From the NCBI GenBank assembly GCA_030390025.1, contig CM059432.1, positions 64,482,001-64,546,000 on the forward strand: a stretch of 64,000 nt of DNA, written 5' to 3'. Position numbers and translations under genes: made by a program. Origin of the DNA: Squalus acanthias (taxonomy: Eukaryota). A model generated the notes under the pieces. It was not told where the DNA came from and did not search any database. It saw only the letters and a list, made by a program, of their open reading frames with translations. Below, in pieces: positions 2,950-54,624 of the stretch (positions are counted from its first letter, which is position 1; every line of letters begins with the position of its first letter).

Positions 2950-3409
2950 CCACGGATAATGAAGCGGTCCGTGCCCGCATGCAGCAAGACACCATCTAGG
3001 ACAAAGCAGCCCACTTGATTAGCACCCCATCCACCACCTTAAACATTCCACCACTGGTGCACCGTGTCTGCAGTGTGTACCATCTGCAAGATGCACTGCA
3101 GCAACTTGCTAAGGCTTCTTCAACTGTACTTCCCAAATGCACGACTTCTACTACCTAGAAGGACAAGAACAGCGGGCGCATAGGAACACCATCACCTCCA
3201 AGTTCCCCACCAAGTCACACACCATCCTGATCATTGTTCCTTCATCGTCGCTGGTTCAAAATACTGGAACTCCCTCCTTAACAGCACTGTGGGAGTACCT
3301 TCACCACACGGACTGCAGTGGTTCAAGAAGGTGGCTCACCACCTCCTTCTCAAGGGAAATTACGGATGGGCAATAAATGTGGGCCTTGCCAGCGATGCCC
3401 ACATCCTGT
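2950..3409 (+). mobile_element. LINE family B (CR1/L2-group non-LTR element) 3' fragment with an internal deletion
   Basis: Homologous to 41763-42866 and to the reverse complement of 30999-31800; ends with gggcaataaatg...gatgcccacatcc. Confidence 0.85.
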
Positions 3410-4307
3410 AAAGTTGCTGCAGTGCATCTTGTAGATGGTACACACTGCAGCCACGGTACGCCGGTGGTGGAGGGAGTAAATGTTTATGGTGGTAGATGGG
3501 GTGCCAATCAAGCGGGCTGCTTTGTCCTGGATGGTGTCGAGCTTCTTGAGTGTTGTTGGAGCTGCACTCATCCAAGCAAGTGGAGAGTATTCCATCACAC
3601 TCCTGACTTGTGCCTTGTAGATGGTGGAAAGGCTTTGGGGAGTCAGGAGGTGAGACACTCACCACAGAATACCCAGCCTCTGACCCACTCTTGTTGCCAA
3701 AGAACTTATGTGGCTGGGCCAGTTAAGTTTCTGGTCAATGGTGACTCCCAGGATGTTGATGGTGGCAGATTTATCAATGGTAATGCCATTGAATGTCAAG
3801 GGGATGTGGTTAGACTTTCTCTTGTTGGAGATGGTCATTTCCTGGCCCTTATAAGGCGCGAATGTTACTTGTCACTTATCAGCCCAAGCCTGAATGTTGT
3901 CCAGGTCTTTCTGCATGTGGACATGAACAGCTTCATTATCTGAGGAGTTGGGAATGGAACTGAGCACTGTGCAATCATCAGCGAACATCCCCACTTCTGA
4001 CCTTATGATGGAGGGAAGAACGTTAATGAAGCAGATGAAAATGGTAGGACCTAGGACACTGCCCTGAGGAACTCCTGCAGCGAGGCACTAGGGCTGTGTG
4101 ATTGGCCTTCAACAACCACAGCTATCTTCCTTCGTGCTAGGTATGACTCCAGTCAGTGAAAAGTTATCCCCCTGATTCCCATTGACTTCAATTTTATTAG
4201 GACTCCTTGATGCCACACTCGGTCAAATGCTGCCTTGATGTCAAGGGCAGTCACTGTCACCTCACCTCTGGAATTCTGCTCTTTTGCCCATGTTTGGACC
4301 AAGGCTG
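3410..4307 (-). mobile_element. LINE family B, RT part of the element interrupted by the CR1 at 4308-8475
   Basis: Encodes ALDIKAAFDRVWH and MEYSPLAW...QDKAARLIG; colinear with 31300-32180. Confidence 0.9.
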
Positions 4308-4540
4308 TAAGAACATAAGAACATAAGAAATAGGAGCAGGAGTAGGCTAATTGGCCCCTCGAGCCTGCTCCGCCATTCAATAAGATCATGGCTGATCTGA
4401 TCCTAACCGCCAATCTACTATCACAGAACCATCTCCTGAACCTAACAGAATTGGACACACAAAATAGGAGCAGGATCAGGCTACACGGTCCCTGGGCCCG
4501 CTACGCTACCCACAGGGCCATGACCGATCTGAACCTAGAC

Positions 4541-7340
4541 TCATGTCCAAATTCCTGCCCGCTCCCCGTAACCCGTAATTCCCTTTACTTCTAGGAAACT
4601 GTCTATTTCTGTTTTAAATTTATGTAATGATGTAGCTTCTACAGCTTTTTGGGGCAGCATATTCCATGGACCTACCACCCTCTGAGTGAAGTAGTTCATT
4701 CTCATCTCATTTTTGAAAGTGCAGCCCCTTATTCTAAGACTATGCCCCTAGTTCTAGTTTCACCCATCATCGGGAACATCCTCCCGGCATCCACCCGATC
4801 CAACCCCTTCACAACCTTATATGTTTCAATAAGATCGCCTCTCATTCTTCTGAACTCCAATGAGTAGAGTCCCAATCTACCCAACCTCTCCTCATATGTC
4901 CATCCCCTCATCTCCGGGATTAACTGAGTGAACCTTCTTTGTACTGCCTCGAGAGCAAGTATGTCTTTTCTTAAGTATGGACACCAAAACTGTATGCAGT
5001 ATTCCAGGTGCGGTCTCACCAATACCTTGTACAACTGAAGCAATACCTCCCTATTTTTATATTCTATCCCCTAGCAATGAAAGCCAACATTCCATTGGCC
5101 TTCTTAATCACTTGCTGCACCTGCATACTAACCTTTTGAGTTTCATGCACCAGGAGCCCCAGATCCCTTTGTACTTCAGTACTTTCCAGTTTCTTGCCAT
5201 TAAGATAATAACTTGCTCTACTATTTTTCCTGCCAAAGTGCATAACCTCACACTTTCCAGTATTGTATTCCATCTGCCAAATCTCTGCCCACTTACTTAG
5301 CCTGTCTATGTCCCCTTGCAGATTTTTTATGTCCTCCTCACTCACTACTTTCCCTCCCATCTTAGTATCATCTGCAAACTTTGATATGTTACACTCGGTC
5401 CCCTCCTCCAAATCGTTAATATAGATTGTAAAGAGTTGGGAACCCAGCAGTGACCCCTGCGGAACACCACTAGTTACTGATTGCCAGTCTGAGAATGAAC
5501 CATTTATCCCAACTCTCTGCCTTCTGTTAGATAGCCAATCCTCTATCCATGCCAGAATATTACCCCCAATCCCGTGATTTTTTATCTTAAGCAATAATGT
5601 TTTGTGTGGCACCTTGTCAAATGCCTTTTGGAAGTCTAAATACACTACGTCCACTGGTTCCCCTTTATCCACCCTGTATGTTACTTCCTCAAAGAACTCC
5701 AGCAAATTTGTCAAACATGACTTCCCCTTCATAAAACCATGCTGACTTTGTCCTATTAAATTATGATTATCCAAATGTCCCGTTACTGTCTCCTTAATAA
5801 TGGACTCCAAAATTTTACCGACCACAGATGTTAGGCTAACCGGTCTATAGTTTCCAGCCTTCTGTCTACTGCCCTTTTTAAATAAGGGTGTTACATTAGC
5901 AGTTTTCCAGTCTGCTGGGATCTTTGCTGAGTCCAGGGAGTTTTGGAAAATTATTACCAATGCATCCACAATCCCTACCGTCACTTCCCTCAAGACCTTA
6001 GGATGTAAGCTATCAGGTCCAGGTGATTTATCCGCCTTGAGTCCCATTATTTTACCGAGTACCACTTCCTTAGTGATTTTGATCGTGTTTAGCTCCTCCC
6101 CCCCTATAGCCCCCTGTTTGTCCAGTGTTGGGATATTCTTAGTGTCCTCTACTGTAAAGACTGATACAAAATATTCATTCAGTGTATTTGCCATCTCCAT
6201 ATTTCCCACCATTAATTTCTCGGTCTCATCCTCTAAGGGACCAACATTTACTTTAGCCACCCTTTTTCTGTTTATATAACTATAAAAACCCTTACTATCT
6301 GTTTTTATATTTTTTGCTAATTTACTTTCATAATCTATCTTCCCTTTCTTAATCAATCTTTTTGTTATTTTTTGCTGTCTTTTAAAGTTTTCCAAATCCT
6401 CTATCCACCCACTAGATTTGGCTACCTTATAAGCCCTTGTTTTTAGTTGAATACTATCCTTAATTTCTTTAGTTAGCCACGGATGACTGTCTTTTCTTTT
6501 ACACCCTTTTCTTCTCAGTGGAATATATATTTTTTGGAAGTTGTAAAATAACTCCTTAAATGTACACCACTGATCATGTATCGTCTTACCCTTTAATCTA
6601 TTTTCCCAATCCACTCTACTCAATTCCGCTCGCATACCTTCATAGTCTCCTTTATTCAAGCTTAGCACGCTTGTTTGAGATCCAACCTTCTCACCCTCTA
6701 ATTGAATATGGAATTCAACCATGTTATGGTTACTCATTCTAAGGGGATCCTTTACTAGGACATTTTTAATTAATCCTGTCTCGTTACACAGGACCAGATC
6801 TAAGGTTGCTTGCCCCCTGGTCGGTTCAGTTACATACTGCTCAAGAAACCCATCCCTAATACACTCAATTAACTCATCCTCAAGGCAGCCCTGCCCAATT
6901 TGATTTGTCCAATTAATATGATAGTTAAAATCCCCCATAATTATAGATGTTCCCTTATTACAAGCCTCAACTATTTCCTGATTGATACTCCGTCCAACAG
7001 AGTTGCAACTGTTCGGAGGCCTATAGACTACGCCCACTAGTGTTTTTTTCCCCTTATTATTCCTTATCTCCACCCAAACTGTTTCATTATCCTGATCTTT
7101 TGACCCAATATCATTTCTCTGTATTACAGTGATTCCTTCCTTTATTAACATAGCCACCCCACCTCCCCTTCCTTCCTGCCTGTCCTTCCTGATCGTTAAA
7201 TAACCTGGTATGTTTAATTCCCAGGCATTGTCACCCTGCAGCCATGTTTCTGTAATAGCCACAAGATCATACCCATATGTAGTTATTTGTGCCATTAACT
7301 CATCTATTTTGTTACGAATGCTACGTGCATTCAGATAGAG
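4541..7340 (-). pseudogene. CR1 ORF2 (APE endonuclease + reverse transcriptase), frameshifted near 5070 and 4746
   Basis: LYLNARSIRNK, ITETW, YRPP, GDFN (EN); KSPGPD, NYRPVSLTS, DFQKAFD, GVPQGS, FADD (RT); 743-aa open stretch at 5064..7295. Confidence 0.93.
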
Positions 7341-7526
7341 ATTTCAAATATGTTTTGTGACACTTAGTTCCTGCTTTTGCCCTTTTTATTACTTTACCTT
7401 TTACTCCATACCTTCTGCCCCTTTCTGACACACTCTGGTTTTTAATTTCCCCACTGCTACCTAAGTCTATGACCTTCTCTGTTGTCATTTTTATTATTTG
7501 CTCTCTAGGAATCTCCCCCCGACTAG

Positions 7527-8471
7527 TTAATTTAAAGCCCTCTCTACCGCCCTAGTTATATGATCCGCCAGGACTCTAGTCCCAGCACTGGCCAAGTGAA
7601 GCCCGTCCCAACGGAACAGCTCCCTCCTGCCCCAGTACTGGTGCCAGTGTCCCAGGAAGCAAAACCCATTTCTCCCACACCAGTCTTTGAGCCACTCATT
7701 TAACTCTCTAATTTTATTTGTCCTAGCCAAATTCGCTCGTGGCTCAGGTAATAATCCAGAGATTATTACCCTTGAGGTTCTGTTTTTCAATTTGACCTCT
7801 AGCTGCTCATACTCCTTTAACAGAAGCGGCTTCCTTGTCCTATCTACGTCATTTGTACCAACATGGACCACGACAACTGGATCCACCCCCTCCCACTGCA
7901 AGTTTCTTTCCAGCCCAGAGGAGATGTCCTTAACCCTGGCACCGGGCAGGCAACACAGCCTACGGGACTCTCGCTCTCGGCTGCAGAGAACTCTATCTAT
8001 CCCCCTAATAATACTATCCCCTACCACTACAACATTTCTATTTACTCCCCCCTCTTGAATGGCCCCCCGTTCCACGGTGCTGTGGCCAGGTTGCTCATCC
8101 TCCCTGCAGTCCCTGCTCCTGTCCCCACAGGGAGTAAGAACCTCGAACCTGTTGGACAAGAGCAAGGGATGCAGCTCCTCCAACACTACCTCCTGGATCC
8201 CCATACCTGCCTCACTCGTAGTCACACCATCCTGTCCCTGACCATGGGCTACATCTGAATTAATTAACTTCATAGGTGTGACCACCTCCTGAAACACAGA
8301 GTCCAGGTACTTCTCCCCCTCCCTGATGTGTCGCCGTGTCTGAAGCTCAGACTCCAGCTCGTCAACACGGAGCTGGAGTTCCTGTAGCAGCAGACACTTG
8401 TCACAGATGTAATCACCGTGAGCCTCAATGGGGTCCACTGGCTCCCACATCTCGCAACAGTAACACATCAC
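7527..8471 (-). CDS. CR1 ORF1 protein: Cys-rich zinc-finger-like N-terminus, coiled coil, SGNH/GDSL esterase-like domain
   Basis: 314-aa open frame: CYCCEMW...YICDKC, LQELQLRVDELESEL, VVVGDSII, PGAR, VHVGTND, DGLHL. Confidence 0.88.
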   Translation of the reverse strand: MMCYCCEMWEPVDPIEAHGDYICDKCLLLQELQLRVDELESELQTRRHIREGEKYLDSVFQEVVTPMKLINSDVAHGQGQDGVTTSEAGMGIQEVVLEELHPLLLSNRFEVLTPCGDRSRDCREDEQPGHSTVERGAIQEGGVNRNVVVVGDSIIRGIDRVLCSRERESRRLCCLPGARVKDISSGLERNLQWEGVDPVVVVHVGTNDVDRTRKPLLLKEYEQLEVKLKNRTSRVIISGLLPEPRANLARTNKIRELNEWLKDWCGRNGFCFLGHWHQYWGRRELFRWDGLHLASAGTRVLADHITRAVERALN

Positions 8472-8475
8472 CTGC

Positions 8476-10467
8476 TAATGAGGTCTGTAGCCAAGTGGTC
8501 CTGGCAGAACCCAAACTGAGCATCGCTGAGCAGGTTATTGGTGAGTAAGTGCCACTTGATAACACTGTCAATGACACCTTCCATCACTTTGCTGATGATT
8601 GAGAAGAGACTGATGGGGCGGTAATTGGCTGGATTGGATTTGTCTTGCTCTTCGGGGACAGGACATACCTAGACAATTTTCCTCTTTGTCGAGTAGATGC
8701 CAGTGTTTAGCTGTACTGGAATAGCTTGCTAGAGGCATGGCTAGTTCTGGAGCACAAGTCTTCTGCACGACAGCCGGGATGTTGTCTGGGCCCATAGACT
8801 TTGCTGTATCCAGTGCGCTCAGCCGTTTCTTGATATCACATGGAGTGAATCGAATTGGCTGAAGACTGGTTTCTGTGATGTAGGGACCTCAGGAGGAGGC
8901 CGATATTGATCATCCACTCGGCATTTCTGGCTGAAGATGATTGTAAATGCTTCATCCTTGTCTTTTGCACTCACGTGCTGGGCTCCACCATCATTGAGGA
9001 TGGGGATATTCATGGAGCCTCCTCCTCCTGTTAGTTGTTTAATTGTCCACCACCATTCACGACTGGATGTGGCAGGACTGCAGAGCTTTGATCTGATCTG
9101 TTGGTTGTGTGAGCGCTTAGCTCTGACTGTAGCATACTGCTTCCGTTGTTTAGCATGCATGCAGTCCTGTGTTGTAGCTTCACCAGGTTGGCACCTCATT
9201 TTTAAGTACGCCTGGTGCTGCTCCTGGCATGCTCTTCTGCACTCCTCATTGAACCAGGGTTGGTCCCCTGGCTTGATGGTAATGGTAGAGTGAGGAATAT
9301 GTCGGACCATGATGTCACAGATTGTGATGGAATACAATTCTGCTGCTGCTGATGGCCCACAGCGCCTCAGGATGTCTAGTCATGAGCTGTTAGGTCTGTC
9401 TGAATAATCTCATTTAGCATGGTGGTCATGCCACATAACATGACAGCAGGCGACCTCTGTGTGAAGATGTGACTTCATCTCCACAAGACTGTGCGGTGGT
9501 CACTGCTACCAATACTATATTGGACGGGTGCATCTGCGACTCGTAGATCGGTGAGGCCGAGGTCAAGTAGGTTTTTCCCTCGTGTTGGTTCTCTCACCAC
9601 CTGCCACAGGCCCAGACTGGCCGCTATGTACTTCAGGACTCGGCCAGCTCGGTCAGTATTGTTGCTACTGAGCCACTCTTGGTGATGAACATTGAGTTTC
9701 CCTACCCAGAGTATTTTCTGTGCCCTTGCTACCCTCAGTGCTTCTTCCAAGTGGTGTTCAACATGGAGGAGTACTGATTCATCAGCTGAGGGAGGGCGGT
9801 AGGTGGTAATCAGCAGGAGGTTTCCTTGCTCATGTTTGACCTGATGCCATGAGACTTCATGGTGTCTGGAGTCAATCCCTCCAGGCTGTATACCCCTGTG
9901 CTGCCATCTCTGCTGGCCCAGTCCTGCTGGTGTAACAGGACATACCCAGGGATGGTGATGGAGGAGTCTGGGACTTTGGCTGACAGGTATGATTCTGTGT
10001 ATATGACTATGTCAGGCTGTTGCTTGACTAGTCTGTGGGACAGCTCTCCCAATTTTGGCACAAGTCCCCAGATGTTAGTGAGGAGGACTTTGCAGGGTCG
10101 ACTAGGGTGGGTGTGCCTTTGTCGTGTCTGAATCTGATGCTGGGTGGTCCGTCCAGTTTTATTCTTATTATTGTTTTTTGTAGCGGTTCGTTACAACTGT
10201 GGGTTTTGAGTCACATATAGGCCAGACCAGGTAAGGGCGGCAGATTTCCTTCCCTAAAGACATTAGTGAACCAGATGGGTTTTTATGACAATCAAGTAGT
10301 TTCATGGTCACTATTACTGATACCAGCTTTTTATTCCAGATTTATTTCATTAATTGAATTTGAATACCGCAACTGCCGTGGTGGGATTTGAATTAATGCC
10401 TCCGGATCATTAGTCCAGGCCTCTGGATTACTAGTCCAGTAACATAACCATTATGCTGCCGTACCCC
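8476..10467 (-). mobile_element. LINE family B 5' part: tRNA-derived head, short leader, endonuclease and linker region; no ORF1
   Basis: Frameshifted peptides LLTNIWGLVPKLGEL, DIVIYTESYL, SSDHRTV, PWFNEECRRA, MGPDNIP; colinear with 32180-33552. Confidence 0.88.
10375..10467 (-). promoter_or_regulatory. tRNA-derived internal Pol III promoter (A box CAGCATAATGG, decayed B box ATTCAAATCC) at the 5' end of the family-B LINE
   Basis: Minus strand GGGGTACGGCAGCATAATGGTTATGTTA-CTGGA CTAGTAA TCCAG-AGGC-CTGGA CTAATGA TCCGG-...TTCAAATCCC; second copy at 52960-53055 has consensus boxes. Confidence 0.75.
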
Positions 10468-10854
10468 ATATATAATTGATTAACACATCCATTAAAATAG
10501 CAGACAGATCAATGTAATTCAAACCCATTAAGCATTTGTCTGTTAATTAAACTAACAGTAAATTCTAGTTGTACATGAATATATGAATACATTCAGACCT
10601 GCGGAATGAATGAACTTTGCATAGTCCAATTGCATAAAACTATGCAAGGTGCCGCTACCAGTATGGATTTGAATATTAACAGACAACACAATTTTGTGAA
10701 TATTGTTCGATTATTCAATTAGTGAAATTCAATCCTGTTTGAAATATATAAACACAGAGGATTATTCATGTAAATTCATGACTTTACAAGTTGCTTTTGG
10801 CAAGGTGATTAAAGTATCAGCAGTACTTCCAAACTTGTACTGCACAGAGAGATT

Positions 10855-22155: not shown

Positions 22156-24259
22156 GTATTACCAAAGCTAAGCTATCATGGATAAATAAACATGTGAATG
22201 GATATATAAAAGTAAGCTTCAGGCTCCCATTAATATGTATTCCTCACATTCCTCATTGGCACTGTTCATTTCTATCATTTCACCTACACACAAAATATTT
22301 TCAATTACTGAGAGCAGCCAGTCACTCTTTTGAACAGGTTGTGTTGCTGAAGTCAATGAAAATGACAATCAGGAGAGATGTAAAATGGGCTGCCGATTCA
22401 CGATCACTCATTTTACACTGTGGCAGAAAGTCAAGATTTACTCCGCAGGGTCAAACAAGCAATAAAGCATTGCAGCAAAGAGCAAAAGTTACACAATGAA
22501 ATGGAGGGAGGGAGAGAATCAAAAGCTAAGTTGAAATTCCAGATGAGCCTAACCAAACAATAGTTGAGAAGAACAGCAGCAGCTTGAATGGGGCTAATAG
22601 TTAGGCAAAAGGAATTCTAACATAAGGCTTGACTACTTTCACCTTCAAATAAATGCATTTACCCAAATCTAACATTTGCCCTGAAATTAAAGGGCCAATT
22701 TTAACACCCCTCATTCCCCCCAACACCATCCCTCCCCCCACCCCACCCCCGGCCTGGTGGGAAAGGTGCAAGTTGGAGCTTAAGATGGCGGGTGGAGAGG
22801 TTTATGTTATGTTCCCGACGCATTCCTGCTCCCCACACCATTGTTGATTCCCTACTTTGAGGCACAGGGGCACTCCCAAAAGAGCAGAGGCCTAATTTAA
22901 ATGGCAGTGTTGTGTTCTGATGATGTCAACAGGACTCACAGGCCATTTTAACCATGAGCCCAACTAAGGCCCACACAGTCTCCAACACACCAGCGAAAGC
23001 AAGAATCCTGGCCACAGGAGGCTAAGGTAAGGGATTTTTATAAAGGTTCCTTGTGGGTCAGGAGAAGCAGGAGTGCTCCTCCTGGCCTGACCATGGTCAT
23101 CCTCTGCCCCAGGCTTCCCCCTACCCCATGATCACGGACATGCCGACCTCCACCTAAATCATTACTCACCTTGCCAGGCCTGTATCCATGGGTCCCCAGT
23201 GGTGGCCTAACCTCCCCCTCTAATTTTAACTCTTGCCCGGCGGCGGTGATGTTATTCCCGCCGGCTTTGGGTGAGAGGCAGAGTCGAATCATGTAACTAA
23301 GGCGTTCGAGGGGACCGGACGGTTCGTCGCCTGCTTCAGTCCCACAAAGTCGATTCTCGCTCCGAATCGGGGCTGCAATTTCTCCTTTGATTATCTTATG
23401 TTTTGTTGCTGTTGGACAGTGTAGGAGTGCTTTGTGCATTAAAGACATGTGGGCCCTAAAATGCCCCCATGGAACATTAGCTTGAAAACATTTAATGCAT
23501 TTGTCTGAAATTCCTCCCTTTGCTATTTTAGTAAAGATGTTAGCCTATTTAAAATAATTGGTTTACTTCCTAAAGTAGCAAAGAGGGGAATGTCAAACCA
23601 ATACATTAAATATTTGTACACTAGTATTCCACTGCCGAATTTTGAGGCTGCTGTTTGCATTACAGTTACCTATTAAATCTTTCTTATTGTTCTGCCACTG
23701 ATTAAATGTTTTCCAACTCCAGTAAATGTCTAAAGGGATTAGATTGAAAGTTGTTTCTGTAAGATTTGCCATAAACAAAAGTGAAGATTTAAAAAAAAAC
23801 TTTTGAAGATGATGCTTTTAAAAATGTTTCATTCTGATATGTGATTTTTTTTTACATAGTCTATCTATGGAACAAAGAAAGGCACAATTGTGCAAAACAA
23901 AAAATCAGTAATAGGAACCATCCAAGTTCGACGGGGGTATTAAACGGCCGCCCGATATACACTTTGCCCGATTTGCCTTTCCACATAGTAAAAGAAAGTC
24001 AGACAGGGTGTGCAACGGGCGGACAATCGCACATTGTCCATTTTACACCCCCGCCGAAGTTGAACGTTCCGCCCATAGTTTCCTGTGCAGAAAATGATAA
24101 GATATTGGGTCACGGCCAGAGATTTTGACTACCTCAGCCCTAGTCAACTTAAACCCAAGTCCTCTATCACTTTATTTTAAATAGACTCACTAGTCTCCAA
24201 TTGCTCCTTTAGACTCACACAATTCAACACATTTTTAAATATAGGATTTACTTTATTTC

Positions 24260-25030: not shown

Positions 25031-26139
25031 AATGTAAGCACATTTGAATTTGAATGAAATTTTGGAAAGAGAGTTAGGGGGCAGCTCGTTTTACACCCCA
25101 CAGAGTTCCTGTTCTATTGAAATCAATGGAAATCAAAATTGGGTGAAGTGTACAACAGGCTGCCGATTCACTATCGCCTATTTTGCAATATGAATTTCAT
25201 CCCCATAGTATTTAGTTTCCCTCTTAGTCCAATTGAGAAGTAAAATGCATGCAAATAAATCCTTGGCAGTCTATGGGGATTATGCACATCTTTATAACAA
25301 CATAAGAAAGCATTGAGCAAAAAAAGATTATTTGGCCCCTTAAGTCCCTTCCTTTCACAGATGACATGCAAGCCACTCTAATATGGATTCTACCCAACCC
25401 AACTCATTTTATTTCTTCATAAAGGGCTCTGCAACTTTTTTCCTCAAACATCAAATTTAAATTTAACACAATTCCAGAACCTTTTTGCCTCCAATATTAT
25501 TTATCTTTGACCAGGTCATTGTCAATGTCACCCTTAAGCTGTCAAACCAAAGTAATGGTTCTCATTCTCATTTCCACTTCTTATTCTCCACACAGTCCTT
25601 CCCTGTTGAGATGGCCAAGATCAGAAACGTAAGGTGTTATAGCTTGTCAATTATGGTGAAGCAAATGGCCTAGAATCTGATGCATGCTGCCCCTGAACTC
25701 AGAGTGTTAAAATTGGCAATCAATACAATTGTTCTAACATTTTGGTGAAATAGCACTGCTGATATAATCGATGAATATTTGCAATACAATACACTTTTGT
25801 TAGCTGCATTCTTCAAAGAGAAAGACTCTCCTGTCTCATTTGGCTACAACTTTTGACTTAGTGTGCAATAGCTATCGCACTTCACAAAATACTGGTCATA
25901 TTGCAAAGTCCAATTGATTTAAGACTTTAAATAAAAGCACTGCTATTTTCATTTCAATTCTGCCACTCGTTTTTCCTGGAGTACTTTTTTGCTATTACTA
26001 TAGCCAGTCTTTTGAAGTCAATTCATTTTTAAAAGCTTTTGTTTTAATGACTTAGTTCTTGGAATGTGGCTAACACTGGCAAGACAGCATTTATTGCCTA
26101 CCCTTTGTTACCATGAGAGCACTAAGAGTCAACCACATA

Positions 26140-27420
26140 GGCCGGAATTTTCTCCAGGGAGGCGGGTTGGGGGCGGGGGGCCTTCGAGGTGGGCGGGAAA
26201 CCCGGTCTCCCAACTTTAACAGCAGGGCCTGATTTGAATGTGAGGTCTCAGATTCCCGCCCGCAGCCAGCCAGATTAAGAGGCTGGCTGGCTGCTGGCGG
26301 GTAGGCCTGCAGATGTGAGGGGTCAGTCCGGGGGAGGGATCGCGGGGTGGGGGGGGGGGTCGGGGGGTCGGCAGTTGGGGATCGCTGGAGGGGCTTTTGG
26401 GGGGTCAGCAGTCGGGGATTGCGGGGGGGGGAGGTCGGGGGGTCGGCAGTCAGGGATCACGGGAGGGAGGTCAGGGGTCGGCAGTCAGGGATCACGGGGG
26501 GGAGATCGGGGGGGGTCGGCAGTCAGGGATCACGGGGGGGGAGGTCGGGGGTCGGCAGTCAGGGATCACGGGGGGGAGATCGGGGGGGTCGGCAGTCAGG
26601 GATCACGGGAGGGAGGTCAGGGGTCGGCAGTCAGGGATCACGGGGGGGAGATCGGGGGGGTCGGCAGTCAGGGATCACGGGGGGGAGGTCGGGGGTCGGC
26701 AGTCAGGGATCGCGGGGGGGAGGTCGGGGTCGGCAGTCAGGGATCGCGGGGGGGAGGTCGGGGGGTCGACAGTCAGGGATCACGGGAGGGAGGTCAGGGG
26801 TCGGCAGCCAGGGATCGCGGGGTGGAGGTAAGCAGTCAGGGATCGGGGATCGCGGGAAGAAGTCGGCAGTGGAGGATCGGGGATCGCAGGTAGGGGGGTC
26901 CGGCGGGTCGGCAGTGGAGAATCGGGGATTGCGGGCGGAGGGGGGTCGATGGGGGGTGGTGGCAACCGGAGCATCGGCAGGGGGATCTCGGCCAGGGGGG
27001 TTGGAGGATCGGCGGGGTGTGGGGCGTGAGTCGCCCGGGGATCGTGGGGGGTCAGGGATTGGGGATCGACGGGGGGGAGAGAGGATCGGGGTCGGCCACC
27101 GGAGGATTGTGGCCGGCCTCAGCATCATCAGTGGGGTGGGAGGGGGCCTCATGGTGGGGATCGAAGGCCTGGGAAGGCGATCGGAGCCCTCGTGGGGGTG
27201 GTCTCTGATCGCGGGGGGTGGGTTAGGTAGGGACCCTGGATCCAGGTGGCAGGAATAAAGCCACTTCCCTCCTGGATGCAGCAGTCCTCTGTTTAACTGC
27301 CGGGTTTCACGAATTATGTAAAACCCGTTCACATGCAGTTAAATTCAAAATGGAGCTGTAAAAAGAGGCTTCCTGCCTCATTATAATATTTAAATTGACA
27401 TACCGCCCCTGGGAGCTGAG
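26140..27420. mobile_element. GC-rich Harbinger-type non-autonomous element hosting a G-rich minisatellite; right terminus not found
   Basis: Left terminus GGCCGGAATTTT; 27300-27410 resembles the subterminal region of the element at 46738-47980. Confidence 0.55.
26330..26950 (+). repeat. G-rich minisatellite, unit ~33-36 bp (GGGGGTCGGCAGTCAGGGATCACGGGGGGGAGGTC)
   Basis: More than a dozen visible copies of TCGGCAGTCAGGGATC separated by G runs of variable length. Confidence 0.95.
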
Positions 27421-30998: not shown

Positions 30999-33552
30999 GC
31001 GTCGCAGGCAAGGCCAGCATTTATTGCCCATCTCTAATTGCCCTTGAGAAGGTGGTGGTGAGCCGCCTTCTTGAACCACTGCAGTCCGTGTGGTGAAGGT
31101 ACGCCCACAGTGCTGTTAGGGAGAGAGTTCCAGGATTTTGACCCAGTGATGATGAAGGATCGGTGATATTATTCAAAGTCAGGATGGTGTGTGACTTGGA
31201 GGGGAACTTGGAGTGGTGGTGTTCCCATGCATCTGCTGCCCTTGTCCTTCTAGGTGGTAGAGGTTGTGGATTTAGGAGGTGCTGCCGAAGAAGCCTTGGT
31301 GAGTTGCTGTAGTGCATCTTGTAGATGGTACACACTGCAGCTACGGTACGCCGGTGGTGGAGGGAGTGAATGTTTAAGGTGGTGGATGGGGTGCCAATCA
31401 AGTGGGCTGCTTTGTCCTGGATGGTGTCGAGCTTCTTGAGTGTTGTTGGAGCTGTGGAGAGTATTCCATCACACTTTTTTGTGCCTTGTAGATGGTAGAA
31501 AGGCTTTGGAGAGTCAGGAGGTGAGACACTCGCCACAGAATGCCCAACCTCTGACCTGTTCTTGTAGCCACAGTATTTATGTGGCTGTTCCAGTTAAGTT
31601 TCTTGTCAATGGTGACCCCCCCCATGATGTTGATGGTGTGGGATTCGACGATGGTAATGCCGTTGAATGTCAAGAGGCGGAGGTTAGACTCTCTCTTGTT
31701 GGAGATAGTCATTGCCTGGCACTTGTGTGGCACGAATGTTACTTGCCTCTTATCAGCCCAAGCCTGAATGTCGTCCAGGTCTTGCTGCATGGGGGCATAG
31801 ACTGCTTCATTATCTGAGGAGTTGTGAATGGCACTGAACACTGTGCAATCATCAGCGAACATCCCCACTTCTGACCTTATGATGGAGGGAAGGTCATTGA
31901 TGAAGCAGTTGAAGATAGTTGGGCCTAGGACACTGCCCTGAGGAACTCCTGCAGTGATGTTCTGGGATGTGATGATTGGCCTCCAACAGCCACAACCATC
32001 TATCTTTGTGCTAGGTATGCCTCCAACCAGTGGAGAGTTTGACCCCTGATTCCTATTGACTTCAATTTTACTCTTGCTCCTTGATGCCACACTCAGTCAA
32101 ATGCTGCCTTGATGTCAAGGGCAGTCACTCTCACCTCACCTCTGGAATTCAGCTCTTTAGTCCATGTTTGGACCAAAGCTGTAATGAGGTCTGGAGCCAA
32201 GTGGTCCTGGCAGACCTAAACTTTGCATCGGTGAGCAGATTATTGGTGAATAAGTGCCGCTTGATAGCACTGTTGATGACACCTTCCATCACTTTACTGA
32301 TGATTGAGAGTAGACTGATGGGGCGGTAATTGGCCGGATTGGATTTGTCCTGCTTGTTGTGGACAGGACATACCTGGGCAGTTTTCCACATTGATGGGTA
32401 GATGCCAGTGTTGTAGCTGTACTGGAACAGCTTGCTAGAGGCACGGCTAGTTCCGGAGCACAAGTCTTCAGCACGATAGCCGGGATGTTGTCGGGGCCCA
32501 TACCCTTTGCTGTATCCAGTGTGCTCAGATGTTTCTTGATAGCACGTGGAGTGAATTGAATTGAAGCCGCCTTCCCCATGAAAATCCACCCCTCTGTCTC
32601 TGTCTATCTTTCGGTCGCTCTCTCACTCCTAATGGAAATGTCGTGCTTCTAGCCCTTTAAGCTGCAGCAACCTTTGAACAGCTGCAGTTAGAACCGATTC
32701 CTCCCCCCCCCACCCCCGTCCCACCCCCTCCCAGCAATATAGATGGTGGGGCCCTCAGGAGGAGGCCGAGATGGATCATCCACTCGGCACTACTGGATGA
32801 AGATGGTTGCAAACACTTCAGCCTTGTCTTTTGCACTCACGTGCTGAGCTCCTCCATCTTTGAGGATGTGGATGTTCATGGAGCCTCTAACAAATTAGTT
32901 GTTTAATTGTCCACCACCATTCACGACTGGATGTGGCAGAACTGCCGAACTTTAATCTGGTTGTGGAATCACTTAGCCCTGTCTATAGCATGCTGCTTCT
33001 GCTGTTTAGCATGCATGTAGTCCTGTGTTACAGCTTCCCCAAGTTGGCAGCTCATTTTTAGGTACGCCTGGTGCTGCTCCTGGCATGCTCTTCTACACTC
33101 CTTATTGAACCAGGGTTGGTCCCCTGGCTTGATGTTAATGGTAGAGTAACGGACATGCCAGGCCATGAGGTTACAGATTGTGGTGGAATACAGTTCTGTT
33201 GCTGCTGATGGCCCAAAGTGCCTCATGGATGCCCAGTTTTGAACTGCTAGATCTATTCTGAATTTACCCCATTTAGCATGGTGGTAAGTGGCATACAACA
33301 CGATGGAGGGTGTCCTCAATGTGAAGACGGGACTTCATCTCCACAAGATCTGTGCAGTGGTCACTGCTACCAATATTGTCATGGACAGGTGCTTCTGCCA
33401 CAGGTAAATTGGTGAGGATGAGATCAAGTAGGTTTTTCCCCTCGTGTTGGTTCTCTCACCACCTGTCGCAGGCCCAGTCTGGTAGCTGTGTCCTTCAGGA
33501 CTCGGCCAGCTCGGTCAGTAGTGATGCCTCTGAGCCACTCTTGGTGATGGAC
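30999..33552 (-). mobile_element. LINE family B, 5'-truncated within the endonuclease region, carrying a templated insertion at 32564-32742
   Basis: [45 protein letters not shown] in the ORF track; 3' tail as in the other copies. Confidence 0.92.
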
Positions 33553-34821
33553 ACCCCCCCAACCGATGATCCTGTGGCCGGCCCAATCATCTGGTGGTCA
33601 GCCCCGATCTCTTGCTTGTCTCCCCCGTCAACCCACCCCGGTCCCTCAACTGCCCTGATTCTTGCTTCCCCCCTGCACCCCCCCCCCCCTCCCTGGTCTC
33701 TCGATGGGTCCCCGATCTCTTGCTTCCACCTCCCCCCGGTCCTCTGGAGGCCGGCACTGGCCCCCACCCGTTCCCTCCCTCCCTCCTCCGTGCAGCCTAG
33801 TGCCGCAGGCCTACCCACTCACAGCCAACCAGCCTCTCCATCTGGCTGGTTGCAGGTGGGAAACAGAGGCTTCAGATGCAAGTCAGGCCCTGCCATTAAC
33901 CGGCAGGGCCTGTGAGAAACCCTGTTCTCCCGGAATTCCCATCTGCATCAGAGCCCCTCCCACCCCCAAGCTGCCTTCCCCATGAAAATCCACCCCTCTG
34001 TCTCTGTCTATCTTTCGGTCGCTCTCTCTCTCCTAATGGAAACGCTGTGCTTCTAGCCCTTTAAGCTGCAGCAACCTTTGAACAGCTGCAGTTAGAACCG
34101 ATTCCTCCCCCACAACCCCCGCCCACCCCCGCCCCACCCCCTCCCAGCAATATAGTATTAATCAGAGCAAGATTGCCTCTGTAAACCCACCCTAAATATT
34201 AAATTAGCCCTCCCCCCACACAAGGAAAATACAGTCAGATGCTGGTGGGATCACATGGATGGATGGAAATCCTTTATTGCCATTTTTCTGATGGGCCCAG
34301 GAAAATCCAGGCCAGTGACCCACCAGCTTGCGAGCAACATCAGGACTTACCCTCTGTGGCTGTTTTTAGCTGTTTATGCCATTTCTCCGGGGGTCCGCGA
34401 AAATTATAGGCATATATATTAAAATGTTTAGTTCAATATTGAATGCAGCCCAGCAGTGCTTCTCTCAAGTGGCCATTCATTCTGTGTGAATCTCGGTAGT
34501 CAGAAACAGTGGCCTATCCAATTGTGTGGCATTAAATCCAAGCTCAGTTCTATCTTTACATGTATTGCACCACTTCCACTATGGGTCACTGGATACCAAT
34601 TGAAAGCAGGAGTCTTGGGTGATTTTTATTTGCTCCTCTTTAGCCTGGGACAGCTGAGAATAAATGCAGAGGTACAATCCCAGCAAAGATTAGCTAATTT
34701 AGATGGGTTGTTTCAAGGCAAGGTTGACTCTACAACCCACAAACAAATTTACAAGCCTGGCTCATGAGTGTAACAAGAATCATATCCAATGCTTCTGTAT
34801 CTAGTATATCATAAAGAAAGG

Positions 34822-39152: not shown

Positions 39153-39517
39153 TAATATTGTTAGTTTTCCATACGCGGCTGCAGTTATCAGTCTGCAATT
39201 ACTGGAAGAGTGTGTGGTACACATGGATTAATATACATTTTTATCATAAGGACGAGCACTCCTGTTCCTCCTGGCCCTACAAGGAAAATTTAAAAAAGTA
39301 AAAGGACTTAACCTCTTTATGCCTCTTCTGGCCCCAACTCCTCTTCCCATTAGGTTAGCCTTGTGCATAAGCCACAACTACTTTCCCGCTCAGGTTGATG
39401 GTTGTAATAGCAATCAGGCCCCGATGATGTCAACCAATCCCAATTTGCATATTTAAAGAAGGAACCCGTCGACTTGTCAACATGTGTCCTTCTCGCCTGC
39501 TCAGACGAGCAGGTTAA

Positions 39518-39755
39518 AGTTAGAGCCTGCAGGATCAGTGGGGGGGTCGGCGGCCGAGTCCCAAGGGTGATTTTAAGTTAGAGCCTGCAGGATCAGTGGG
39601 GGGGTCGGCGGCCGAGTCCCACGGGTGATTTTAAGTCAGAGCCTGCAGGATCAGTGGGGGGGTCAGCGGCCGAGGCCCACGGGTGATTTTAAGTTAGAGC
39701 CTGCAGGATCAGTGGGGGGGGGGTCGGTGGCTGAGGCCCACGGGTGATTTTAATT
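39518..39755 (+). repeat. Minisatellite, 4 copies of a ~58-bp unit, inside a Harbinger-type MITE end
   Basis: AGTTAGAGCCTGCAGGATCAGTGGGGGGGTCGGCGGCCGAGTCCCACGGGTGATTTTA repeated four times. Confidence 0.93.
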
Positions 39756-51895: not shown

Positions 51896-52583
51896 ATTTA
51901 TGGCTGTTCTACTGTCAAATTCTGATTTTATGTACTTATTTAGTTAATTAATTAACTGGTGATTGGCCCATTGGTATTTAGGGCAGACTTATTTAATTTA
52001 TTGATTGGTAGTTTGTGCTGAACCCTGATTGTATCTATTGAGGGAACATTCATTTAATTGATTGACAGATTCCCTATGGAGGCTGATTGTATTCATTGAG
52101 AATGTATATATTGAATTTATTAATTTGAGGCGGAAAGCATGCTCTGTGATGGAATTTTTGGAGGCCTGATTTATATTTATTTATTAGTTGGATTGCCGCT
52201 TGCTCTGAAGCAATCTTTGAAGGCCTGACTCATTTGTTTCCTGGCTGAAGCCCAGCTCACTGCGAAGCCTGATGGAGGTTTTGCAGGGCAGAATTATTGA
52301 TTTGGTAGTTGAAGACCATGCAGCCCAAAGCCCAGTACAACTTTTGGAGGCTGGAATTATTTCTTTATTTCAAAGCTGGAGCGCCGCTGGCTCTGAAGGC
52401 CCATGAGATTTTCAGTGGTTCCATTTATTCAAGCAGGAGTAAAGTTTTCATGTAAGCGCAATGATGGGGCTGACTCCAGTGTGGAAGCTGAAGCACCGAC
52501 TGGGCAGGAAGGCCACTCGATGAAAGGGAAGGTTTTGAGTTCGGGAATGGGCTGTCGCAGCAGCTTGGGTGGTTTTTAAAATG

Positions 52584-53055
52584 TATTTATTCATTCACAG
52601 GATGTGGGCGTCACTGGCAAGGCCAGCATTTATTGCCCATCCTTAATTGCCCTTGAGAAGGTGATGATGAGCCGCCTTCTTGAACCGCTGCAGTCCATGT
52701 GGTGAAGGTTCTCCCACAGTGCTGACTTTGTCGTATACAACTGAATAGCTTTCTCAGCCTTTTCAGAGGGCAGTTAAGAGTCAACCACACTGGAGTCACA
52801 TATAGGCCAGACCAGGTAAGGACGGCAGATTTCCTTCCCTAAAGGACATTAGTGAACCAGATGGGTTTTATCTGACAATCTGGTAGTTTCATGCTCACTA
52901 ATACTAGCTTTCTTAATTCTAAATTTATTTAATTAACTGAATTTAAATTCACCCAGCAGCCATGGTGGGATTTGAACTCCCGTTTCATGGATCATTAGTT
53001 CAGGTCTAGCATGGATTACTAGTCCAGTAACATAACCACTATGCTAGCATACCCC
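52584..53055 (-). mobile_element. SINE-like non-autonomous derivative of LINE family B: tRNA-derived head fused to the family-B 3' tail
   Basis: 52730-53055 matches 10185-10467; 52600-52724 matches 30999-31115; A box TAGCATAGTGG (53036-53046), B box GTTCAAATCC (52968-52977). Confidence 0.88.
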
Positions 53056-54624
53056 AAGCTGCAAAGGAAGGAATAACTGAGTGCCACAGAAGGCAGGCAG
53101 CAGCAGTGGTGTGACAGCAGGGACAGGAAAAGCAGAGGATGGCTGGGAAAGGCCCAACAGGGCACAGGGACACGGCCACCAGTAAGAGAAAGAGAAGCAG
53201 GGCTGCAGGGAAGGAGATCAGGAGGCAACGGTGGGGAAGCTCAGAAAGCTCAAAGGGCTGACTGTCAGCAAAAGGCTTGAGGCTGACAGCAGGAGACTGA
53301 AAAAAGGTAATAAAAATAAATAAGATGAAAAATAAAAGTTAAGTGAAAGAAATTTAATACAAAAATACCCAAAACTTGCATCCGCATCAAACAAAAAACA
53401 ATATGACTAACAGATGGAGAGAGCTAGGAAACTAGTCTACAGTTTCATCAGCTAGCGAGAGCCTTCAACTACACTGTGACAGGCTACTGTTTACATCGGA
53501 AATGTTTACATCGTTATATCATGTTTTTCCATTGTAAATGTTTACATACTGATTTTCAATGTGAAACGTTGACATTAAAAGCATTACTCAGATTGGTGAT
53601 GCAGGAAGCAATGTTTGTAGACAGGAAATGTGCCATATGCAAGATTTTAAATTATTTATACATTGTAATCCATAATACATTCGAAATCTTAAATCTGTGC
53701 ACACTTCCTGTCTTCAAAGTCATACTTTCTGTTGTCACGGTTTTACCACACTTTCATGTCAAAGTTTCTATGTGCACATTAATAATGGAAACTACCTATG
53801 TAATCTGTAAACTTGTCGCACTGTGATCATACCCTCCCACAAGTGGCGGTGCTGTAGTGCTTCAATTTGCATCTCAGCTTCTCAGCCTATACTGCAGAGA
53901 AACTCTTGTGTCTAACCAACTCTACTTCTCAGATTCCCAAAGAGCTGTATGTTTTATTATGTGACTACAAATGTAATAATATAAAGCCTAAGTATTAGAT
54001 GAAAATAAGGATGGAGTATGAATTTAAAGATTAAATTATGTCTGCACACTCTAATCCAATATTCTCCCACCCTCCAATTCCACTTCACTTGAAGACTACA
54101 TTGATTAGTAATCTCATAAATCGATCAAGTATTGGAAATAGTGGCTGTGAAATTCGGCCCCTTAGCGCCAGTTGATAAGTCCGCTTTCGGTGAAAAAATG
54201 GTGGCCGCCTCGCTTCCGCCCACTTATGGCAGGTCCTGTGGTGGCGCCCATTTTGGACAGATCAGCAGCAGCCGTCGGCTGCGCTCGCTGGAGAATTGGT
54301 AATGAGGCAGATTGTGATGTCAATGACTGTGCCACGCTGATTTAATGCACAACCTGCCATTTTCGACATCGCCATTCCATTCAATGCCCTCTCCAAATCA
54401 CAAACAGCTGAACAGGCGTTCAGCAGCAGGAGGACCCCCACCAGTGCTATTTAAAGGAACAAATTGCAGCTGACTTGCTTTTTGATTTGTACTGACTTTC
54501 TAGAGTTTCTAAACAGATTTCTAGAGTTGTTTAAAGTTGGTGAGGTGACAGGGAGTGTTGCTCCAAGTGGAGAATGCCTTGCTTCTGATTTCAAGGGTTC
54601 TGCTCATACCACTTGCTCCCAGTC

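What the first reader, a model, noticed from the sequence alone, without database searches (positions are those of the whole stretch)
52584..53055. SINE built from both ends of the family-B LINE (head + tail, ORF deleted)
The same tRNA head and leader found at 10185-10467 is joined directly, at ~52724, to the last ~140 nt of family B. This copy has consensus A and B boxes. Sharing both ends with one LINE points to SINE birth by simple internal deletion of a Pol III-headed LINE, rather than the usual tRNA + LINE-tail fusion. A shorter tail-to-leader join (gcatttattgcc...taagagtcaaccacat) occurs at ~26060-26138.
Basis: partly seen in the sequence, partly recalled or inferred. Interest (0 to 1): 0.7.

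Follow-up and report, generated by a model that had tools for sequence, protein, structure and literature searches.

The report
Gutted copy of tRNA-headed LINE
This 473-base repeat is a shark jumping gene (a LINE that starts with a tRNA-like promoter) that has lost its protein-coding middle; related copies are cut at many different points, so it looks like one of many shortened copies, the raw material from which SINEs could arise, rather than a proven SINE family of its own.

Summary
The anatomy is real. On the minus strand, a tRNA-like head and leader (83% over 270 nt to 10468-10208) join at 52725/52724 to the last 141 nt of family B (89-91%), which include the ORF's last 26 codons. The head at 10468 belongs to one near-full-length LINE, interrupted by a CR1 insertion.

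In contigs of four runs, 134-708 contigs per run leave the element at 52724 and continue into the LINE body. No displayed contig bridges this junction. The displayed head-to-tail joins fall at 13 other tail positions. A short-tail join near 52653-56 recurs in 3-4 of 4 runs and at 26060, so an amplified subfamily may exist, but this copy is not of it.

Family B lacks sense-strand T-runs, unlike the neighbouring CR1 and most of 32 distant relatives. That fits Pol III transcription but does not show it. The relatives show no head, so the LINE itself probably captured it.

Verdict: a SIDE-like deletion product of a tRNA-headed LINE; new variant of a known kind; interest 0.5.

The parts
52969..53056 (-). 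tRNA-like head: A box 53046-53036, anticodon-like arm with an AGT loop 53027-53012, a second copy of that arm 53003-52988, B box 52977-52969
   Evidence: Motif scan. Rfam tRNA alignment of the sister head shows D arm and anticodon arm at 15.4 bits, below threshold. A 21-nt tandem duplication lies in the sister head at 10398-10439.
52793..52968 (-). [quoted passage not shown]
   Evidence: Alignment to 10468-10208
52744..52792 (-). Rest of the leader. Missing from the 10185 copy. Here it is diverged and lacks about 12 nt near 52790.
   Evidence: An 11-mer is shared with 26126. Loose ends at 52790, letters between joints and majority letters at 52745-52760 in contigs.
52725..52743 (-). LINE-type sequence that lies between leader and endonuclease in the LINE
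   Evidence: An 8-mer also at 10199-10192, and a 9-mer found only here and at 10125-10117 in the window. Two alignments are possible.
52643..52724 (-). Deletion junction (52725/52724), then the last 26 codons and stop of the LINE ORF
   Evidence: LINE copies at 31115 and 3282 and 134-708 contigs per run continue into the RT body here.
52584..52642 (-). LINE 3' UTR and terminal repeat; a T4 run follows just downstream
8476..10468 (-). Parent-type LINE copy, 5' part: head, leader, AP endonuclease, start of RT
   Evidence: Pfam Exo_endo_phos_2 on 9475-10011
3412..4310 (-). Continuation of the same LINE copy (RT) beyond a CR1 insertion
   Evidence: The two edges rejoin to the sequence that is uninterrupted at 32225-32140
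26050..26138 (-). Second, decayed leader-to-tail join with a short tail, cut at its 5' side by another element

Best explanation
The element is a short internally deleted copy of family B, a roughly 3.2-kb single-ORF (endonuclease + RT) LINE whose own 5' end is a tRNA-like head. About 2.8 kb of the middle is gone. The loss happened either in DNA after a full-length insertion, or when the RT jumped from 141 nt into the tail to the leader during target-primed reverse transcription; these cannot be told apart here. The product keeps a Pol III-type promoter, has no internal T4 terminator and keeps the 3' end that the LINE RT is expected to recognise. Any such deletion is therefore SINE-like from birth. 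This junction appears to be one of many independent ones, while a short-tail junction near 52653-56 recurs and may have amplified. Shown: shared ends, retained ORF end, varied junctions, T-run lack. Inferred: deletion as the route, a private junction, Pol III transcription, mobilisation.
For: (1) LINE-type sequence on both sides of the junction. (2) The 10468 head is contiguous with endonuclease and RT over about 2.9 kb once a CR1 insertion is set aside; it is the only family-B copy in the window that reaches the 5' end, and it has the head. (3) At 52724, 302, 708, 697 and 134 contigs in four runs go on into the LINE body; none of 32 displayed pieces bridges the junction. (4) Displayed head/leader-to-tail joins fall at 13 other tail positions between 52631 and 52693 (10 of 15 displayed joint rows, 12 of 12 displayed letter rows). 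(5) Two of those contigs, from two organisms, carry LINE pre-endonuclease letters before the join. (6) Head and tail are no further from the LINE copies than LINE bodies are from each other. (7) Family-B sense strand, one pass of 3176 nt: 0 T4 runs vs 4.8 expected, 7 T3 runs vs 22.8. CR1 ORF2: 9 vs 9.0 and 35 vs 35.4. In 32 distant relatives the T3 ratio is 0.62-1.66 against 0.31 here, with 6-44 T4 runs each.
Against: One search shows only 15 of 1843 joint rows, 12 of 649 letter rows, 24 of 2358 loose-end rows and 32 of 267,495 pieces. An amplified set with this junction could be hidden, and high-copy sequence breaks into contigs too short to bridge. I saw head-to-endonuclease continuity directly in one copy only. 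The T4 lack is not significant against dinucleotide shuffles in the non-redundant set (p 0.117; T3 p 0.010). The head does not reach tRNA thresholds and does not fold better than shuffles. There is no target-site duplication (longest direct repeat 4 nt in 30-nt flanks) to show insertion as one unit.
Confidence: 0.7

Rival explanations
1. Ordinary route. An independent tRNA SINE lineage (head + body + family-B tail) exists. The 10468 LINE, or a minority of LINEs, gained the head from it by template switch or recombination. The finding is a SINE-LINE chimera made when the RT switched from LINE RNA to SINE RNA.
For: No head-like A+B motif upstream of 32 distant relatives (0 of 32; 0.2 expected), so the head was captured at some time. 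A short-tail form recurs in 3-4 of 4 runs. Module exchange among SINEs is documented (PMC5786205, PMC7245038, PMC4824008).
Against: The finding keeps LINE-type sequence past the point where the short-tail form joins its tail. T-run lack along the whole coding strand is not expected from a one-off chimera. Heads are no more divergent than bodies.
Confidence: 0.16
2. One reading: this copy belongs to an amplified SINE family with this one fixed junction, born once by deletion.
For: Intact A and B boxes, no internal T4, a T4 just downstream and a complete tail. One contig of another organism runs 8 nt past the junction (record 28), too short to count as bridging.
Against: No displayed contig bridges the junction. 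The majority letters at five places in 52745-52760 differ from this copy. Joins shared between runs lie 60-85 nt nearer the 3' end. The window's second join (26060) differs.
Confidence: 0.12

Closest known systems
Persaeus SIDE from the CR1-group LINE Zenon, Lepidoptera (Wang et al. 2019, PMC6740152; parts 1-3 of 5 read)
   Same: Both ends of a single-ORF LINE are kept, including the ORF end; variable break points; repeated independent origins.
   Different: Persaeus has no tRNA homology and no Pol III promoter, and it is amplified up to 115,283 copies. Here the kept 5' end is tRNA-like, and amplification of this junction is not shown. Whether family B is Zenon was not tested.
SINEs with bipartite LINE parts: Bov-tA, AfroSINE, SINE2_Gav, SINE2-1_EC, SINE2-1_ACar/Vingi (Kojima 2018, PMC5786205; parts 1-4 of 5 read)
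   Same: tRNA head + LINE 5' part + LINE 3' part.
   Different: There the head is added to a deleted LINE by template switch, and only the RTE and Vingi clades are reported. Here the head already sits on the coding LINE.
RTE-1_DAn and relatives (one sentence in PMC5786205)
   Same: A LINE that holds a tRNA-like sequence matching SINE2 elements.
   Different: Named as RTE. Position, promoter role and short derivatives are not described in the text I read.
Described cartilaginous-fish SINEs: HE1/HER1, SacSINE1, SINE2-1_CM (passages of PMC3747384, PMC5499810; Ogiwara 1999 not read)
   Same: tRNA head and a LINE-shared tail, in sharks.
   Different: They are described with V, Deu or CORE bodies and share only the tail with their LINE. 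I could not align their consensus sequences, so non-identity is partly recall.

Membership tests
SINE2 (SINEBase definition, PMC3531059 passages) | Short (<1 kb), interspersed, non-coding | tested here: met
   473 nt, not in a tandem array; only the last 26 codons of the ORF remain
SINE2 (SINEBase definition, PMC3531059 passages) | [quoted passage not shown] | tested here: inconclusive
   Rfam tRNA 15.4 bits over 55 nt on the sister head; no hit on this head; no tRNA set on hand for a direct identity count
SINE2 (SINEBase definition, PMC3531059 passages) | At least 100 copies of the same structure | tested here: inconclusive
   Junction not bridged in the displayed contigs; tables truncated; contigs give no copy number
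SINE2 (SINEBase definition, PMC3531059 passages) | [quoted passage not shown] | not testable with these tools
   A/B-like boxes and no internal T4; contigs show no start or strand
SINE2 (SINEBase definition, PMC3531059 passages) | 3' end shared with a partner LINE | tested here: met
   89-91% to three family-B tails
SIDE / bipartite non-autonomous LINE | 5' and 3' ends both homologous to one LINE, middle missing | tested here: met
SIDE / bipartite non-autonomous LINE | Retrotransposed as a unit (shared junction among copies) | tested here: inconclusive
   Not seen for this junction; joins at 52640-52656 recur in 3-4 of 4 runs
CR1-Zenon LINE clade (for family B) | RT phylogeny places it with Zenon | not tested
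   No named reference set. Nearest full-length hit is a 959-aa endonuclease-RT protein at 43%. CR1-Zenon-like LINEs are mentioned for the whale shark (10.1101/443036, passage).
CR1-Zenon LINE clade (for family B) | Single ORF, no ORF1 | tested here: met
   About 370 nt from the 5' end to the endonuclease motif in the 10468 copy
MetaSINE / UCON3-domain SINE | Meta or UCON3 domain after the tRNA head | tested here: inconclusive
   No likeness by eye to bivalve Meta sequences (part 1 of 4) or to UCON3 rows; 0 hits for five short motifs in the hagfish supplements; no formal alignment

The most novel reading that the evidence does not exclude
Family B is a protein-coding LINE transcribed by RNA polymerase III from a captured tRNA(Thr)-like head, with its coding strand purged of terminators. 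Because promoter and RT-recognition tail sit at its two ends, every internal deletion yields a ready-made SINE. Shark genomes would then hold a full series, from one-off deletions like this copy to amplified short-tail subfamilies, showing SINE birth without any fusion step.
Probability: 0.35. Interest if true: 0.8.

Novelty: new variant of a known kind. Interest (0 to 1): 0.5.

Why it matters
The published model (PMC5786205) has a small-RNA head added to a deleted LINE, and SINEBase defines non-autonomous LINEs as Pol II transcripts. A LINE that carries its own tRNA head removes the fusion step and blurs SINE and SIDE. It also makes two questions testable: which deletion products win amplification (minimal tail length, junction position), and whether a 3-kb Pol III RNA can be translated into an RT. 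The single copy is a decayed repeat with no sign of host function. Its value is as a data point for the family.

Tried and rejected
Whole-genome counting: no genome is held.

A 20-nt head pattern found nothing in viral, prokaryote or metagenome contigs.

Peptide searches meant to sample junctions in predicted proteins: none. Two hits: one tail-only, one repetitive and probably unrelated. The endonuclease N-terminus found 1 protein, fused to an unrelated gene model, with no leader.

Summed contig depth dips at 52733-52755 in all four runs. I did not use this as evidence, because contig depth cannot rank parts and this copy is diverged there.

The first T-run test wrongly included a 179-nt foreign insert (32564-32742) and its sister (33968-34155). 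One search exposed this and one search is the corrected test. Both remaining T4 runs lie in one copy and are absent from the aligned position in the others.

The first A+B scan of relatives failed its positive control and was redone. The redone pattern still misses the 10468 head, so it would miss decayed heads. ARAGORN at a lowered threshold gave noise.

Folding of head, leader and tail gave no significant z-score.

Literature: nine searches listed no paper that, by title or abstract start, describes a shark LINE with a tRNA head. Repbase, Dfam and subscription papers could not be searched. Supplements of PMC5499810 were not available and could hold relevant consensus sequences.

Full report
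Setting. The window is repeat-rich animal DNA. A protein hit at 69% identity over a third of a family-B RT piece comes from the horn shark Heterodontus francisci, so the host is most likely a shark. No whole genome is held, so genome-wide counts were replaced by contigs of public runs.

Observation. The element runs 53056 to 52584 on the minus strand. Its 5' 270 aligned nt match 10468-10208 at 83%, starting at the same base. Its last 141 nt match three family-B 3' ends at 89-91%. Between them lie about 50 nt of leader that the 10185 copy lacks (an 11-mer of it recurs at 26126) and about 19 nt of LINE-type sequence. That stretch holds an 8-mer also at 10199-10192 and a 9-mer found in the window only here and at 10125-10117. 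It can be read as one extra 65-nt deletion or as a small local one; both keep LINE sequence 5' of the junction. On the 3' side the last 26 codons of the ORF remain. A 2-4 nt microhomology is possible but not resolved. There is no direct repeat in the flanks.

The head. A and B boxes fit recalled consensus patterns at 53046 and 52977, though the pattern occurs 3 times in the window against 1.6 in shuffles. Rfam aligns D arm and anticodon arm of the tRNA model to the sister head at 15.4 bits, below threshold, with an AGT anticodon loop, that is Thr-like. The finding's head gets no tRNA hit and ARAGORN finds none. The anticodon arm is duplicated. tRNA origin is likely, not proven.

The parent. 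The 10468 head leads into an AP endonuclease after about 370 nt, with no room for ORF1. The copy breaks at 8476, where a long CR1 (esterase ORF1, endonuclease-RT ORF2) is inserted, and resumes at 4310. The two edges rejoin to the sequence that is uninterrupted at 32225-32140. Head, endonuclease and RT thus form one element over about 2.9 kb of an estimated 3.2 kb. The other family-B copies in the window are 5'-truncated; a profile search found no further full head. Direct evidence for head-on-LINE is therefore one copy. Earlier scan notes claim it for many loci of this genome; they are unchecked AI notes and not counted as support.

Junction test. I laid contigs of 4 of the 24 listed runs, from four organisms (three DNA, one guessed RNA), on 52480-53160 at 80% likeness; 44,773, 118,936, 93,132 and 6,457 records were laid. 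At 52724, 302, 708, 697 and 134 contigs leave the element, and their consensus is the LINE body found at 31115 and 3282. None of 32 displayed pieces (of 267,495) bridges the junction. Of 15 displayed joint rows (of 1843), 10 join head or leader to tail and 5 lie within the head. All 12 displayed letter rows (of 649) join head or leader to tail. Together they give 13 tail positions from 52631 to 52693. Joins at 52640, 52642 and 52653 stand in 4 of 4 runs and 52656 in 3 of 4, each with 1-10 contigs per run. The 26060 copy joins at about the same tail position as the 52653-56 group. Two contigs from two organisms carry LINE pre-endonuclease letters before the join; these letters are also complementary to the tail at that point, so a fold-back reading is possible. 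Limits: the tables are truncated; sides are 20-56 nt; joins with longer tails or deeper 5' break points cannot show on this reference; contigs give no copy numbers.

Relative age. Ungapped identity is 91% for head versus head, 89-92% for tail versus tails and 86-89% for LINE body versus body. The short copy is not an older, separate lineage by this rough measure, which rests on two heads.

Pol III plausibility. One pass through family B (3176 nt) has 0 T4 and 7 T3 runs on the sense strand, against 4.8 and 22.8 in base shuffles (p 0.006, <0.001) and 2.1 and 13.6 in dinucleotide shuffles (p 0.117, 0.010). The antisense strand and CR1 ORF2 are at expectation. Of 80 metagenome loci fetched with an alignment of distant relatives, I used the 32 with a long match and at least about 300 nt upstream. 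Their T3 ratio is 0.62-1.66 against 0.31, and each has 6-44 T4 runs. None has an A+B motif within 800 nt upstream. They are distant (best segments 24-43% identical to the alignment's first protein), so they show only that head and T-avoidance are not general in this RT group. The head was therefore probably captured in or near the shark lineage.

Mechanism. Step 1, inferred: a single-ORF LINE captured a tRNA- or SINE-type head. Step 2, inferred from shown anatomy: internal deletion, in DNA or by an RT jump, repeatedly yields head + tail elements. Small deletions are common in these copies (about 50 nt at 10200, about 12 nt at 52790), so DNA-level loss is plausible. Step 3, open: some products amplify; the 52653-56 type is the candidate. 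This copy has a tail twice as long and looks private.

Comparison. It works like the Persaeus SIDE (PMC6740152, parts 1-3 of 5 read) but keeps a tRNA-like promoter. [quoted passage not shown] Seen as passages only: PMC7245038 (plus a supplement search), PMC5499810, PMC1513397, PMC3747384, PMC3531059 and 10.1101/443036. For PMC4824008 I saw passages, section 9 and part 1 of 4 of its supplement. Ogiwara 1999 was not read. Nine searches listed no description of this arrangement in sharks; Repbase and Dfam may still hold the family.

Verdict. Observation confirmed, interpretation partly supported. New variant of a known kind; interest 0.5. The striking claim belongs to the LINE family and remains untested by experiment.

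Noticed in passing
window 4311-8475 (-): Long CR1 LINE with a GDSL-esterase ORF1 piece and a 759-aa open endonuclease-RT frame, inserted into the RT region of the head-bearing family-B copy with no clear target duplication. This CR1 copy is therefore younger than that family-B copy.
   Followed up: yes
window 52560-52569 and 53053-53062: A 10-bp inverted repeat flanks the element instead of a direct repeat. 6 of 5000 random flank pairs reach this. It could be a hairpin target or a short inverted copy made at insertion.
   Followed up: partly
window 10182-10189 and 52682-52689: 8-nt complementarity between the LINE's pre-endonuclease sequence and its tail. 2 of 12 displayed contig joins fall at it. 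End-to-end RNA pairing might guide some deletions; about 6% by chance on my rough arithmetic.
   Followed up: no
window 2988-3412 (+): A second, 5'-truncated family-B copy abuts the head-bearing copy tail-first at 3412, in the opposite orientation.
   Followed up: partly
window 32564-32742 and 33968-34155: A 179-188 nt repeat (91% alike), one copy inserted inside family-B LINE sequence; not identified.
   Followed up: partly
window 10030-10200 (-): A short second open frame overlaps the start of the endonuclease frame. No ATG is evident for the main frame in this copy, so how the ORF is translated is unclear.
   Followed up: no
window 52869-53012: Many contigs diverge from this copy between 52869 and 53012 (loose ends in 152-2053 contigs; a skip joint in 7-19 contigs per run), which suggests head subfamilies that differ between organisms.
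   Followed up: no
window 23470-23631: A long AT-rich inverted repeat that scores weakly against plant miRNA models; probably a MITE-like hairpin.
   Followed up: no
window 26350-26829 and 39517-39753: G-rich minisatellites of 35/72 nt and 58 nt period; the first lies inside the element that cuts the 26060 copy.
   Followed up: no
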